From positions 94,054,001 to 94,118,000 of the forward strand of contig NC_092345.1 in the NCBI RefSeq assembly GCF_963676685.1: 64,000 nucleotides of DNA, written 5' to 3'. The stretch is from Mytilus edulis. Taxonomy: Eukaryota. Made by a program: the position numbers. Shown piece by piece: positions 33,001 to 39,000 of this stretch (within the stretch, counting starts at the first letter, position 1; each line of letters begins with the position of its first letter).

Positions 33001-36000
33001 ATGTAATATTATTATTTTATTTTTTCAGTCACGGTTTGTAGCAAGTCAGTCATCACAATTAAGAGATGAACTGAAAGAGAGATATGGTGGTGAAAGCTTT
33101 GACAAGAAAGTATTACGTGCAGAACTGTTTAACAAATTAGGATTAGCTTATACCAAACCCTCAACAACATCCAAGTCATGTAAAAAACGATAGTGATATA
33201 GTAGCTAGGTTATAATTAATTTATGAGTACAGATCTTGATTTGATTACAAGAAAGGTTTTTGTGTGAAGTTCTAGGCATGTCTGTTTAAACCAATGATTG
33301 GTAGGGTGAAAGTATATCCCACAGAAGTAGATGTAAAGATTTAACAACAACAAATCTGATTATCCAAAAATAATGGTTATTTATTTGTTAAGGTTACCTT
33401 AGGAAGTGTATTAAGATATCCAGTTGTTTTATGATGTCAGTAGATAAACATTGGGACTAAGCATATTATAATGTCAAAGCTTATAAGTCTTAATTGAAGG
33501 ATGTAACAAAATAAAGCAAAAGTTATTTATAGAAAAAATTTATATGGAGAAATGAGTACACTGGTAAAAAATCTAGTTCATGTACATGGTCTGGATTAAG
33601 TAAAAGAGTGTACAGTGTACCCCTTCAAGTCCTACAGTACACAGACTTATTGTACCACATCTTTTTGTATCATAATACAATGTTACTGTTTCCAGTTTTA
33701 CTTATAAAAGAGTAGGAACAAACACTAATAAGATTTAGATATCAGGTTTTAATACCATGTATTAAAATATATCATTGCTTTACAGTGTTGGAATACACAT
33801 TTTGACTTGTTTTTTTAGTATTATTATTTTGGCTTTGATGTTTGATATGTATACATTAAAGTCTTCATCTTAGTCCACATTCAGTTTTCAATAAAGTTTT
33901 CAATTAATAGCACTGTAAAGAAAAGCTAATGTAAAAATAGATATTGTCTGTATTTAATGATTGGAAATTGTTATCCTGTCTTTTGAAAATTTATCTCACT
34001 TGAGGTACCTGGATCTACAATTTTTGCTAGTTTGGAATTTGTTTAGCATTGAAAATTGTTTTTCTTTAATTTTAAAGATATAAAAATCTGTACTTTTTAA
34101 GATTTTGATCTATTTATTGGGGTATCGTGAAGATCAGCATCAATTGTATGTCTTTCTTTTGTATTTTATGGTCTTGCATTTATTTGTACATAACATAAGT
34201 TGCAGGGAGTATTGTGTATTTATTTATTTATTTATTATGATTTAGTATCTTTTTAGTCTTGTTAATACTTTCTGTGATATACTGATAATTTCTTATCTAT
34301 ACGTTAGTTTTTAGTGTAAAGGTATTCACACACAGATGCAAAATATGTAGGTGATGTCAATTTTATGTAAAACACAAGAAATAAATTAAGACTGATATAG
34401 GACTAACACAAGGCTTCCAAAACGGTCATATATTCCGGACAATTGTATAATGTCCTGTAAAAGTCCGGCTGGGCAAAGCATGAAACGGTCATCTACTTTT
34501 TCGTTTTCAAGGCTTTTTCGGTCATTTTAACATAATTCACGATCTTTTTGGTCCAGCCTTTTGCCATAATAACACCCACACATTTCCGGTCATAAAAGTG
34601 ACATGATGATTAATTACTATCAAAACAACCCCTACTTCAATACTTTTTAATTCTAATCAAGGCTAATTAGTTGTTGGACAGCTGCAAATCTACCTGTTCA
34701 GGTGACAGGTAAACTATTTTCAGTACCGGACATCGTATAAATTAATCGGTCTATTTACAATTATTTTCATACATTTCAGCGGTTTGTATCTAATTATACC
34801 CCCGCTTTAAAAAAAAGGGAGGTATACTGTTTTACCTCTGTCTGTCCTTCCGTCAGTCCGTCTGTCCCATGAATATTTTTCGTCGCATTTTTCTCAGGAA
34901 CTACAATACAAGGATTTCTGAAATTTGGTTTCAGGGTTTATCTAAGTCAGCTATACCGTGTGATGCGTTTTCAGATTGATCACTTGACAGCTTCCTGTTT
35001 ACCGAACACTTGTATGATTTTACACATGATAGCCAAGTTGAAATTTTTCATCACATTTTTCTCAGGAACTACAATACAAGGATTTCTGAAATTTGGTTTC
35101 AGGATTTATATAAGTCAGCTATACCGTGTGATGCGTTTTCAGATTCATCACTCAACAACTTCCTGTTTACCGAACACTTGCATATTTTTACACTATTAAT
35201 ATTATCCACTTGCGGAGGGATAGAAGGTTTTAAGTACTGGTGTAAAATTGCGCGAAACGTAGTAAACATATTCAGATTTTACATATCCGTTTATGGTTCA
35301 TGTTTTACCATTGTCATGTCAACATCCGGTTTTGAAAAATGTGACTTTAAAAACGAAAGTAAAGTTTTTGACAACGTCATTTTGCACAAATAAAGATTCT
35401 AAGGTAGATATGAGCACGCTGATGTGCACACTTTGAATGATGCACTGCCAATTTTAACAGTTTACGTTAGAACATCAAATTCATATCAAAGTAAAGTTTA
35501 ATATCGTTTATTTTTTAAACCTATGTCAATCATTGGGATGGCCATCTGATGAGCATAATTGCCTTTCGTGACTTAATCTTAGGGATTAAAATCGGGATCA
35601 GATATAAAATGTCCGGCTGGCTCAAAATAATTTTGGAAGCCCTGGACTAAACAAGAATTCTGTAGTGTTACTGTGCTTATCCAGTGACCTTTGGGGTATC
35701 ACAATAGCAATGGCTCAAACAGTTTACCAAATTGCAGTTAGATTTCTTCTCCAACTAACTGATCAACTGGTAAAATATTTTAGCAGATTGCTCAAGTGAA
35801 ATGTTGTTAGTATGAAGTGAGTGCTGTAAAATCAAAAGTAATACTTACCATCCAGATCCAGTTAGTTGATATCTTTGTCATTTGTTTCAAACACAAAAAT
35901 GACTTACTATAGTGTGAGTCACTGAATAAGAAGGTCTAATTTTGACATGGAAACTTCTATCATAAATAGATTTTATAAATAAATAGTTGAAAACATTGTT

Positions 36001-39000
36001 TTGTAAGTCTGTAATTTATAGCTTCGTTTTCCAACAACAAGTTAGTGCATAATTGTAATTTGGATTTTTTTTTCTAAAGCAATTGCTTATCTGTTACCAT
36101 TAAAGGGAAATAATTTACATTACTGAAAATCAGCAAAATGTTGTCACAATTTTTGTCTGACAAATATCAACTTTCCTCATTTAATTTGTTTGTAACATTA
36201 TTTTTATGATTATTAAACTTTTATCCTCTGTTTTGAAAAGAAACAATGAAATTTATTTTTAAGATGATTAAAATTTGAAAAAAATTGTAGGCAATATCAG
36301 AAGCCAGGTATCATTGATTAATTTTTTAGTGTACAATAACTCAATAAAAATTATTTCCCTTTAATGCCAGCAGATCAGTAATTTGTATAGAAAACATTAT
36401 ACGAATCATAATTACACAATAACTTTGTCTTAGAAGACAAAGCTATAAAATATACATCTACAAAACAATGGTTTGAACTATTTATTTATAAAATCTATAT
36501 ATGATAGAAGTTTCCATGTCAAAATTAGACCTTCTTATTCGGTGACTCATACTATAGTAAGTCATTTTTGTGTTTGAAACAAATGACAAATATATCAATT
36601 AACTGGATCTGGATGGTAAGTATTACTTTTCATTTCACAGCACTCACTTCATACTAACAACATTTCACTTGAGCAATCTGCTAAAATATTTTACCAGTTG
36701 ATCAGTTAGTTGGAGAAGAAATCTAACTGCAATTTGGTAAACTGTTTAAGCCAATGCTATTGTGATACCCCAAAGGTCACTGGATAAGCACTGTAATGAA
36801 AAATTGTAATGTCAGTAATAATCTTGTAAAATATTTTATGATTTGATTTTTTTTATCTTGACAGAATCATTTTTACATATTGGACAAACAGCATTGACAC
36901 AAGAGCGTGACTGTGATATTTAAAAAAATCAATACTTGTTGTAGGGTAGCTATCTTGTCTAATTTTATAGTATATTTTTATATTCACAAAATGAATAAAA
37001 TGTAGTACAAGCATATTTGACTTTACTTGTTTCTTATTTTAGTTTTGAAGTAAATTGGAATATGGTGCAATGAAACAAAAAAGCCATTCCCTTTTTTGAG
37101 TACATTCAGAACTCTTCCATTCTCATAAGGGATATTTAAATCGTATTGAGGGTAACAAATTAGTAGTAAAGAGCCATTAATTTTCCCATAGTTTCAGGAG
37201 AATATTTATTTCATGAACTATGTTACAGTAAGTGCAGACTATTATTATACTTAACATATAAAAAAAACCCACTGACAACCAACTATTTAAAAAAAAGTTG
37301 TTCCCCTTGGGTTAATTAATTATACAGAAAATTGCATTGCAAGCACTATCAAGCCTACATTTTTTGCATGTTTGTTACCAAAGGAGTAGGTCCATTAAGA
37401 CCCCTTTTTGGTCCCAAAATATAGCAGTTTTACAAAATTGTTAAAATGTAAACTTTTAGTTTTTTTATTGGAAAGTAGAATGCCTCTGCTACATAAATAT
37501 GGGCTGTTTTTTACAATACAATGCACATATATCGGCTACTAGCATCATTAAGTCATGCTAAATGACTGAAATCTACACAATTTTAGCATTTTAGTTAAAT
37601 TTTAGACGGTTTCCGTCTTAAATGAAAGTGGCCGCATTCGTGTTCATTCTTAATATTGAAATGTAAGTTGTATTTGATGATAATACACAACATATAAAAG
37701 GTTGAGGATGAACACGGATGCAGCCACTTCCATTTTGAACAAAAACCATCTGGAAAGTGATGTTTTTTGGCATATTTGAGAGATTTTTCATATTTAAGCT
37801 TGAATCGGAGCGTCTTTAATGACTAAATCAGTTAAAATCTTTCACAGAAACTTATTGAATCAACTGAAATAGACACTGAAGTGTTTAAAAAGTGTCCAAA
37901 ATCTTTCGTCAGATGGACTTGAAATTTGAGGCCAAAATCAGCCCTCACCGGACCTACTCCTTTATATTGGAGTTAAATATCAGAATGTCTTGGACAATCA
38001 ACTGTTTTTAAGAGTTATTTCCCTTGGAAGCACTTGAATACTTACATTTTGAATGTTTGAATTTTTTAGATGTTTATATCAAAGGCTAATAGGGGCCTTT
38101 GTGGCCAAATGGTCTTAGTAGTCAAACTACTGTATCACTAGCCTGTCAACATTGAGGTTTTGAGCAGGTGCACTGTACTCCCAATTTTAATTCATCTTAA
38201 TGTCAGTTTTCCCACCAAAGGTCAGTGGTTCTCTCTGGCTTCTTTCACCAATAAAAACTGATGGCCAAAATATAGCACAATAATGTTGAAAGTGGTGTTT
38301 AACACCAATCATTCAGTCAATCAAAGGCTTGTATCAGCACAATGTTGAAAATATGCCAAGGATTTATTCCCTTTGTAAATAATAGCAATCTCATGCTTAC
38401 GTTTCTTGCAAGATATTTATAAAATAGAATAGAGAATGGAAACTAGGAATGAGTTGAAGAGAGCAACCTCACCAAAGAGCAGAAAACAGGCCACAAAACA
38501 GTGAAAAACCTGCACATAGAAGCAGGCTTCAGCTGGCTCTCAAACAATAAGTTTAAAAAAATGTTTTTTTGTTTGTTATTGCCATTCAAGCAGCCTTTGA
38601 ACAGATCAAATGTGTGCAGCAGCATATATTAACAAGTGTTGACATGTTTGAACTTGTGTGGAAAGTCTGTAATATGAAGATTTCACTACAAGTATCACCT
38701 ATATCTAACTTGATTAACTATCCATGTAAATTAGGTCAAGGTAAGAGGAAGATCTCCAGACAGGCATGTATGTGACTTTACAATCATACAATACCACTGT
38801 GTATCATCGGTACAGCCAATATAGGTACTAACCAAGCGGTTGTGATCGATTTTTCTTCTGACACAGTATGAAAATCTTTCTTTTGTTTACATAATATAAA
38901 TGTGTACTTCAGTCTAAACATTATTGTTGTTTAAGAAATGATTTGGTCGTAGGTTGGTGATTAGAGACGTCTCATTATTTTCCCAAAACAAGAACGTACT

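What the first reader, a model, noticed from the sequence alone, without database searches (positions are those of the whole stretch)
35668..36796. Gapless ~450-bp-arm palindrome with two identity strata between convergent genes
Seen: arms pair position for position (coordinates sum to 72464) with no indel over 449 bp. The outer 338 bp have ~12 mismatches (~96%), then identity drops abruptly to ~74% for the inner 111 bp, around a ~231-bp spacer. No TSD or recognisable transposon termini. It lies 2.5 kb after the CCDC177 stop and ~200 bp before an AATAAA (36994) followed by a T-rich tract. Inference: an old inverted duplication whose outer part was re-homogenised by arm-to-arm conversion or kept by selection; if transcribed it forms a long dsRNA hairpin (hpRNA/endo-siRNA source, ADAR or Staufen substrate). 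Mismatches show no clear G-U strand bias.
Basis: partly seen in the sequence, partly recalled or inferred. Interest (0 to 1): 0.65.

Follow-up and report, generated by a model that had tools for sequence, protein, structure and literature searches.

The report
Foldback DNA transposon copy in mussel
The 1.1-kb palindrome is real, but it is most likely one copy of a non-coding "foldback" cut-and-paste transposon with very long inverted ends, lying between two mussel genes, and is probably not a purpose-built hairpin-RNA gene.

Summary
The geometry is confirmed exactly. The arms pair without gaps (coordinate sum 72464). The outer 338 bp are 326/338 identical and the inner 111 bp are 82/111 identical, around a 221-231-bp AT-rich loop. 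The identity step is abrupt: 0 of 2000 permutations reach it.

The host is a Mytilus mussel. The palindrome lies 2.5 kb past the stop of a 15-exon CCDC177-like gene on the + strand. It lies 10.9 kb from the end of a kinesin heavy chain gene on the - strand.

Both ends read TA followed by C(A/T)GTGC, so a TA duplication sits hidden inside the palindrome. One unnamed database protein (P0009) carries the same terminus and about 115 bp of arm next to an unrelated flank. That points to a second copy elsewhere.

Best reading: a non-autonomous long-TIR (foldback) DNA transposon, probably Tc1/mariner-type. The two strata would be two ages of its inverted repeat. Published work reports that molluscs lack an endo-siRNA pathway, which weakens the hpRNA idea.

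Genome-wide copy number and transcription could not be checked. I rate this ordinary: a new member of a known kind.

The parts
35669..35670 (.). TA dinucleotide at the left end (putative target-site duplication)
   Evidence: TA is self-complementary, so it also extends the palindrome by 2 bp.
35671..36793 (.). Whole element, 1,123 bp: long inverted ends plus loop, with no coding capacity
   Evidence: The longest stop-free stretch lying wholly inside is 42 aa. No Pfam hit on the one overlapping segment scanned, 35608-35796. No Rfam or tRNA hit.
35671..36005 (.). Left arm, outer (young) stratum. It pairs with 36459-36793.
   Evidence: 323 of 335 identical
36459..36793 (.). Right arm, outer stratum
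36006..36116 (.). Left arm, inner (old) stratum. It pairs with 36348-36458.
   Evidence: 82 of 111 identical and gapless. Change point.
36348..36458 (.). Right arm, inner stratum
36098..36116 (.). Perfect 19-bp block that closes the inner stratum. Its partner is 36348-36366.
   Evidence: map. On its own it is only marginally more than chance.
36117..36347 (.). Loop of 231 bp (221 bp by the tool's arm ends), about 23.5% G+C
35676..35688 (.). Terminal 13-mer. It recurs inverted inside the same arm at 35918-35930 with 12/13 identity.
   Evidence: pair I15. Only 1 of 300 shuffles reaches 12/13.
36794..36795 (.). TA dinucleotide at the right end (putative target-site duplication)
17895..33193 (+). 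Neighbour: CCDC177-like gene, about 15 coding exons, stop TAG 33191-33193
   Evidence: Pfam DUF4659 hit on one exon. That exon is 98% identical to M. edulis and 97% to M. trossulus. tblastn exon map.
47645..56035 (-). Neighbour: 3' part of a kinesin heavy chain gene (residues ~430 to the end). The rest lies beyond the retrotransposon and the window end.
   Evidence: The stop position is inferred from the stop-free segment.

Best explanation
The palindrome is one copy (35671-36793, 1,123 bp) of a non-autonomous, foldback-type cut-and-paste DNA transposon in a Mytilus genome. It was most likely moved in trans by a Tc1/mariner-superfamily transposase.

Shown:
- Two inverted ends of 446-451 bp around a 221-231-bp AT-rich loop.
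- No coding capacity.
- TA on both flanks, and termini reading C(A/T)GTG.
- A second sequence elsewhere with the same terminus but another flank.

Inferred:
- The element inserted at a TA in the 14.4-kb spacer between the CCDC177-like and kinesin genes.
- The long ends arose when one end was copied onto the other during repair of an excision gap. This template-switch route has been proposed for long-TIR and hairpin MITEs.
- This happened twice. The inner 111 bp are the remnant of the older event. The outer 335 bp come from a younger event and have since drifted by 3.6%.
- No host function is needed. If read-through RNA covers the element, it folds into a long dsRNA stem. In a mollusc that stem would more plausibly meet ADAR editing, or a paired-TIR RNA excision system, than Dicer-2-type siRNA processing.
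For: - Structure and numbers.
- TA/TA flanks. In a scan of symmetric boundaries, no direct repeat longer than 3 bp was found.
- The right terminus reads CAGTGC and the left CTGTGC. The CAGTG motif of Tc1-like ends is recalled, not taken from a call.
- P0009 (unnamed ENA protein, 78 aa): 26/29 identity to the arm translation. Anchored at the terminus, it shares 9/12 residues inward but only 1/41 (left flank) and 3/41 (right flank) outward.
- In the stretch P0009 covers, at the two sites where the arms differ, P0009 agrees with the left arm. Those right-arm differences therefore look private to this copy.
- The terminal 13-mer is repeated inside the arm at 12/13; 1 of 300 shuffles reaches this.
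- No Rfam family and no tRNA in the window. No Pfam domain on the one overlapping segment scanned, 35608-35796.
- Literature:
  - ITm elements have TIRs of 20-1900 bp and TA duplications (10.1101/656579, passage).
  - Tc1/mariner MITEs with unusually long TIRs or whole-element foldbacks exist, and a template-switch origin has been proposed (PMC3814204, passages).
  - DNA elements and MITEs are abundant in bivalves, with TcMariner and hAT the richest DDE lineages (PMC10294476, passages).
- Other small inverted-repeat elements lie in the same window.
Against: - Only one outside copy was seen, and only as a protein. Its DNA, organism and full extent are unknown.
- A second arm segment found no copy: 1 listed hit, at 32% identity in a 1225-aa protein, not a copy.
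- No other copy in the 64-kb window.
- The TA cannot be told apart from two more paired bases of the palindrome.
- A 3-bp TTA/TAA reading (2 of 3 matching) or a CTG/CTG reading is not strictly excluded.
- No transposase gene sharing these ends was seen. No transposase-family hit appeared among the 167 translated segments scanned.
- The internal copy of the terminal motif is inverted, not direct as in IR-DR elements.
- 41 substitutions with no indel over 449 bp is odd for neutral decay.
Confidence: 0.58

Rival explanations
1. A foldback-type non-autonomous DNA transposon of another superfamily, for example PIF/Harbinger with a TWA duplication. In this reading the TA/CAGTG resemblance to Tc1-like ends is coincidental.
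For: All three ends seen (left, right, P0009) have T before the TA, i.e. T-T/x-A. The flanks read TTA and TAA. The superfamily cannot be fixed without the autonomous partner.
Against: TTA versus TAA is not a direct repeat (2 of 3). No direct repeat of 4-10 bp exists at any symmetric boundary, which argues against hAT, P, Mutator, piggyBac and Kolobok. The terminus fits the recalled Tc1-like motif.
Confidence: 0.14
2. Two separate copies of one dispersed repeat of about 450 bp landed head to head, 221-231 bp apart. The two strata would be a subfamily difference in the inner part, and the 'loop' would be ordinary host DNA.
For: P0009 shows only one end plus flank, so it fits solo units as well. 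Another inverted pair of a ~196-bp unit lies 1.8 kb apart in the same window.
Against: No further copy or fragment in 64 kb, so the family is not dense enough to make chance pairing likely. The inner ends show no terminus-like or poly(A)-like feature, and no tRNA-like head was found. Exact register of the two units over 449 bp without indel.
Confidence: 0.1
3. One reading: a locus-specific old inverted duplication whose outer 338 bp were re-homogenised by arm-to-arm conversion or kept by selection. It would act as a hairpin-RNA source (siRNA, ADAR or Staufen substrate), possibly within a long CCDC177 3'UTR.
For: Sharp identity step. No indel between the arms. Very stable predicted hairpin. Location downstream of a gene on the same strand. 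ADAR1 is present in molluscs and edits dsRNA there (PMC6651903, search listing and start of abstract only).
Against: An outside copy with another flank. Transposon-like ends. Molluscs are reported to lack DICER2/siAGO and endo-siRNA signatures (PMC11114477, PMC12479628). Six other AATAAA motifs lie between the stop and 36994, two of them inside the element. Contigs carrying homologous ~640-aa ORFs are only 2.1-2.7 kb long, which hints at short UTRs if they are transcripts. No G-U bias. No Rfam family.
Confidence: 0.09
4. An assembly artefact, i.e. a foldback chimera of long reads.
For: None beyond the palindromic shape.
Against: The arms differ at 41 of 449 positions, with a structured pattern, and they enclose a unique 221-231-bp loop. 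Chimeric foldbacks give near-identical arms.
Confidence: 0.02

Closest known systems
Long-TIR / foldback non-autonomous Tc1/mariner elements of C. elegans and insects (CeleTc1/Tc7, Tc6, Milord, PALTA-type hairpin MITEs; named in PMC3814204, passages)
   Same: About 1 kb and non-coding. Ends are far longer than the usual <50 bp and take up most of the element. TA target. Proposed origin by template switching during gap repair.
   Different: No sequence relation was tested or claimed. The host is a mussel. The arms show two sharply different identity strata. The partner transposase is unknown.
IR-DR group of the Tc1 lineage (Bari, S, Minos, Paris, Sleeping Beauty; PMC4120734, passages) and Tc3 with its very long ends (recalled)
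   Same: Long inverted ends with a terminal motif that recurs inside each end. TA duplication.
   Different: IR-DR ends are about 250 bp and the internal sites are direct repeats. Here the ends are about 450 bp. The clear internal copy is inverted (12/13). Only a weak 13/18 direct match lies 177 bp inward. No transposase gene is present.
Drosophila-type hairpin RNA (hpRNA) loci producing endo-siRNAs (recalled)
   Same: A long inverted repeat able to form a stem of several hundred bp.
   Different: hpRNA arms derive from target genes and need Dicer-2/AGO2. Here no gene-like match was found, and the pathway is reported absent in molluscs.
Paired-TIR RNA substrates of 'SOS splicing' (PMC12779559, abstract)
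   Same: Base-paired inverted terminal repeats of a DNA transposon in RNA are the trigger described there. This element would form such a structure if transcribed.
   Different: That system was shown in C. elegans and human cells for transposons inside mRNAs. Here transcription is unknown, and the element lies outside the coding region.

Membership tests
Tc1/mariner (ITm) non-autonomous long-TIR / foldback element | Terminal inverted repeats | tested here: met
   446-451-bp arms, 408/449 identical
Tc1/mariner (ITm) non-autonomous long-TIR / foldback element | TA target-site duplication (10.1101/656579) | tested here: met
   TA at 35669-70 and 36794-95. Caveat: TA is self-complementary, so it cannot be told apart from arm extension. 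P0009's codons are compatible with TA but do not fix the base.
Tc1/mariner (ITm) non-autonomous long-TIR / foldback element | Tc1-like terminal motif CAGTG (recalled) | tested here: met
   The right end reads CAGTG. The left end reads CTGTG, one mismatch.
Tc1/mariner (ITm) non-autonomous long-TIR / foldback element | Several copies with the same ends at different loci | tested here: inconclusive
   One outside copy, seen as a protein (P0009). Zero from a second arm segment. Zero more in the window. No eukaryotic genome collection was available.
Tc1/mariner (ITm) non-autonomous long-TIR / foldback element | Autonomous relative with the same ends and a DDE transposase | not testable with these tools
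   None in the window: no transposase-family hit among the 167 segments scanned against Pfam. A genome-wide search was not possible.
IR-DR subgroup of Tc1 | Two or three direct repeats of the binding site within ends of about 250 bp (PMC4120734) | tested here: not met
   Ends are about 450 bp. The best internal copy of the terminal motif is inverted. The only direct match is 13/18.
PIF/Harbinger | 3-bp TWA direct duplication (recalled) | tested here: not met
   TTA versus TAA, 2 of 3
hAT / P / Mutator / piggyBac / Kolobok | Direct duplication of 7-10 bp, or TTAA (Kolobok TTAA: PMC9587614; the others recalled) | tested here: not met
   No direct repeat of 4-10 bp at any symmetric boundary from 35664 to 35674. 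The flanks are not TTAA.
hpRNA / endo-siRNA locus | Long transcribed hairpin | not testable with these tools
   The hairpin is predicted. No expression data were available.
hpRNA / endo-siRNA locus | Arms homologous to a target gene | tested here: not met
   The 63-aa and 42-aa arm translations gave only the copy P0009 and no real hit. Only two frames were tried, and UTR targets were not covered.
hpRNA / endo-siRNA locus | Host has the Dicer-2/siAGO pathway | not tested
   Literature only: reported lost in Mollusca (PMC11114477, PMC12479628).

The most novel reading that the evidence does not exclude
A transposon-derived palindrome has become a fixed, single-locus structure. Its outer 335 bp are kept in register and near-identical by ongoing arm-to-arm conversion or by selection on the stem, while the inner part decays. 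The evidence for this is 41 substitutions with no indel between the arms. The palindrome would be co-transcribed in an extended CCDC177-like 3'UTR as a dsRNA of about 450 bp. In an animal without an endo-siRNA pathway, that RNA would be handled by ADAR editing or by a paired-TIR RNA excision system.
Probability: 0.06. Interest if true: 0.55.

Novelty: new member of a known kind. Interest (0 to 1): 0.2.

Why it matters
As read here, it matters little. It adds one unnamed long-TIR foldback element to a mussel genome already known to be rich in DNA transposons and MITEs.

Two points have some wider use.

- A TA duplication is invisible inside a palindrome. "No TSD" is therefore an unsafe reason to exclude Tc1/mariner-type elements.
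- The sharp two-age structure of the arms is a clean case for asking how long TIRs are built. If every copy shares the same boundary, the cause is repeated template switching at the family level. If only this copy has it, the cause is local conversion. Aligning the copies from a Mytilus assembly would settle this.

Tried and rejected
- Rfam at gathering thresholds over the window gave 0 matches. ARAGORN found 0 tRNAs.
- Pfam on 167 translated segments (11 + 125 + 31) gave nothing in or next to the palindrome, and no transposase-family hit anywhere. I scanned only stop-free stretches of >=56 aa outside the two retrotransposons, plus their ORFs of >=120 aa. Of 406 stretches of >=45 aa, the shorter ones were not scanned.
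- Looking for copies:
  - blastn at word size 9 and then 7 against the window gave only AT-rich noise.
  - A fuzzy search for the terminal 16-30-mers found only the two ends themselves.
  - An exact 27-mer scan of genome contigs found 0 matches. That collection holds bacteria and archaea only, so this says nothing about mussels.
  - A profile-free search of 1.84 billion representative proteins with a 42-aa arm segment gave 1 listed hit, which is not a copy.
  - ESM Atlas gave no usable hit.
- A weak likeness between P0009's flank and the right flank (E 0.13) was rejected. An anchored count gives 3/41. The 28-nt arm-like stretch in the right flank has E 0.08.
- Three literature searches for a described Mytilus palindrome or foldback family listed no paper describing such a family.
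- Assembly artefact was rejected because of the structured arm divergence.
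Full report
**1. Observation**

The repeat finder reports arms 35668-36121 and 36343-36796: 454 nt, 91% complementary, 221 nt apart.
- Pairing each base i with 72464-i gives an unbroken register with no indel.
- The outer 338 bp (35668-36005) match at 326 positions. The inner 111 bp (36006-36116) match at 82. The next 110 bp match at 35 (32%), which is the chance level for this AT-rich DNA.
- A two-rate model places the step after about 35988 (LRT 43.6), and 0 of 2000 permutations of the match vector reach that value.
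- Within the inner part, 36006-36097 is 63/92 identical. A perfect 19-bp block (36098-36116) closes it.
- Mismatches are 5 transitions and 7 transversions in the outer part, and 14 and 15 in the inner part.
- G-U-compatible mismatches do not favour a strand: 3 versus 2, and 7 versus 8.
- As RNA the stretch folds into one hairpin at -645.7 kcal/mol.
- Among 10 inverted pairs found in the whole window, no other has arms above 70 nt.

**2. Where it lies**

- The window has no N and about 32% G+C. I do not take it for human.
- One stop-free segment (21641-21898, + strand) hits Pfam DUF4659, E 6e-8. That DUF4659 is the CCDC177 family is my recollection.
- Searched as a single exon, that segment is 98% identical to a Mytilus edulis protein and 97% to M. 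trossulus 'coiled-coil domain-containing protein 177-like'.
- tblastn of those two named proteins maps about 15 exons from 17895 to 33190 on the + strand. The stop is TAG at 33191-33193.
- A --strand exon (49483-49737), again searched alone, is kinesin heavy chain.
- Two named bivalve references (Ostrea edulis, Argopecten irradians) map exons from 56035 down to 47651. The reading frame closes at 47645-47647.
- The genes are therefore convergent and 14.4 kb apart. The palindrome is 2.5 kb from the first stop and 10.9 kb from the second.
- I searched exon by exon and never joined exons into a model. The joined step was left out.

**3. The ends**

Read inward, the left end is ...GTGT|TA|CTGTGC. 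The reverse complement of the right end is ...TTCAT|TA|CAGTGC.
- A scan of all symmetric boundaries from 35664 to 35674 for direct repeats of 2-10 bp finds four candidates: TG/TG, TA/TA, the imperfect TTA/TAA (2 of 3), and CTG/CTG. The last arises from the single terminal mismatch. Nothing of 4-10 bp was found.
- TA followed by CAGTG is what I recall of Tc1-like ends. A TA duplication is the rule in the IS630/Tc1/mariner superfamily, whose TIRs range from 20 to 1900 bp (10.1101/656579, Introduction passage).
- TA is its own complement. It therefore hides as two extra paired bases, and the evidence is 'consistent with', not proof.
- The terminal 13-mer (35676-35688) recurs inverted at 35918-35930 with 12/13 identity. 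Only 1 of 300 shuffles of the arm reaches this. The recurrence may mark a second protein-binding site.

**4. Is it more than one locus?**

No eukaryotic genome collection was open to me, so I used translated arm segments as probes.

- The 63-aa stop-free stretch 35608-35796 holds 20 flank residues followed by arm. It found exactly one candidate among 5.8 billion proteins: P0009, 78 aa, unnamed, on a 2,762-bp contig.
- P0009's last 29 residues match the arm at 26/29. In a neighbouring frame, its residues just before that match the very terminus.
- Anchored at the terminus, 9 of 12 residues inward agree with each of our ends. Of the 41 residues outward, only 1 agrees with our left flank and 3 with our right flank.
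- Likeness therefore starts at the palindrome's end. This is the behaviour of a mobile element with a defined terminus sitting at another site.
- At the two positions in that stretch where our arms differ, P0009 sides with the left arm. Those right-arm changes therefore look private and recent.
- Against this reading:
  - It is a single protein-level sighting.
  - I did not trace its source.
  - A 42-aa segment from deeper in the arm found no copy among 1.84 billion representatives: 1 listed hit, at 32% identity in a 1225-aa protein.
  - The window holds no further copy.
  - An exact 27-mer scan of the bacterial/archaeal genome collection found nothing, as expected.

**5. What it most likely is**

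- It is a non-autonomous foldback-type DNA transposon.
- The literature passages I read describe the kind. Tc1/mariner MITEs such as CeleTc1/Tc7, Tc6 and Milord bear TIRs far longer than their autonomous relatives. Some families are hairpins over their whole length. The long TIRs are proposed to arise when newly synthesised DNA switches template from one end to the other during repair of the excision gap (PMC3814204, Introduction and Discussion passages).
- Bivalve genomes are rich in DNA elements and MITEs, with TcMariner and hAT the richest DDE lineages (PMC10294476, passages).
- On this model the inner 111 bp are the worn remnant of an earlier end-copying event. The outer 335 bp come from a later one and are now 3.6% diverged.
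- I cannot tell whether the later event happened in the family's source copy or at this locus as a conversion tract. That needs more copies.
- One oddity remains: 41 substitutions but no indel between the arms. P0009's copy needs two frame changes within about 115 bp, and other diverged repeat pairs in the window carry gaps.
- The element is also very poor in CpG: 3 in 1,123 bp, observed/expected 0.13, against 0.50 for the window.

**6. The hairpin-RNA idea**

- A transcript would certainly fold. Nothing here shows transcription.
- AATAAA at 36994 is one of seven on the + strand after the stop. Two of them (35978, 36343) lie inside the element.
- Contigs that carry the ~640-aa homologues are only 2.1-2.7 kb long. 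If they are transcripts, little room is left for a 3.8-kb UTR.
- Two recent surveys report that molluscs have lost DICER2 and siRNA-type Argonautes and show no endo-siRNA signature in small-RNA libraries (PMC11114477 and PMC12479628, abstracts and passages).
- ADAR1 is present in molluscs and edits dsRNA there (PMC6651903, listing and start of abstract).
- Either could act on read-through RNA. This is inference only.

**7. Rivals**

The rivals are listed with their tests in the structured fields:

- another superfamily;
- two head-to-head solo repeats;
- an assembly artefact.

**8. Verdict**

- The feature is real and was measured accurately.
- The negative statement about termini is wrong.
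- The most likely identity is an ordinary, if neatly structured, long-TIR transposon copy: a new member of a known kind, of low interest.
- Unchecked: copy number and orthologous sites in Mytilus genomes, expression, the source of P0009, the supplementary TE libraries, and the closed collections.
- The two LTR retrotransposons in the window were described only.

Noticed in passing
window 5971-14210 (+): BEL/Pao-type LTR retrotransposon. Its 638-bp LTRs are 636/638 identical. Pfam hits: Peptidase_A17, rve, DUF5641 and DUF1759. Its coding region is read as four ORFs of >=120 aa on the + strand. The interruptions were not characterised. Described only.
   Followed up: partly
window 56431-64000 (-), cut by the window end: Ty3/gypsy-type LTR retrotransposon with gag, protease, RT, RNase H and integrase domains. 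Its LTRs are 312/312 identical as far as the window reaches, so it is very young. It sits in an intron of the kinesin heavy chain gene, in the same orientation. Described only.
   Followed up: partly
window 25331-26024, 34875-35193, 39854-40445, 48075-48872, 51560-51946: Five short tandem arrays, all with a period of 155-170 bp, yet not similar to each other at blastn E<=1e-4. One ends 475 bp upstream of the palindrome. Short satellite-like arrays carried by Helentron-type elements are described in oysters (PMC7492417, listing and start of abstract only).
   Followed up: partly
window 20141-20336 and 22098-22294: An inverted pair of a ~196-bp unit (74% identical, with gaps). The two units lie in introns on either side of three CCDC177-like exons. 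Such pairs can bring splice sites together in RNA. Not examined further.
   Followed up: no
window 41115-41236: A 122-bp near-perfect hairpin with 60-nt arms and a 2-nt loop. The 9-mer TGTCAAAAT lies close to both flanks. Possibly a small MITE with a 9-bp duplication.
   Followed up: no
window 18064-18236; 37380-37963; 14679-16513; 31948-32288: Further small elements bounded by inverted repeats of 35-59 nt. MITE-like, unclassified.
   Followed up: no
window 53210-54264 and 50489-50860: A compound tandem array with 41- and 134-bp periods, and a 62-bp array. Both lie in introns of the kinesin gene.
   Followed up: no
window 1-462 (-) and 1882-2106 (-): An ankyrin-repeat coding segment, cut by the window start, and a Complex1_LYR-motif coding segment. 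These are further host genes upstream of the BEL/Pao element.
   Followed up: no
window 35671-36793: Strong CpG depletion of the element: 3 CpG, observed/expected 0.13, against 0.50 for the window and 0.63 for the 2.5 kb just upstream.
   Followed up: partly
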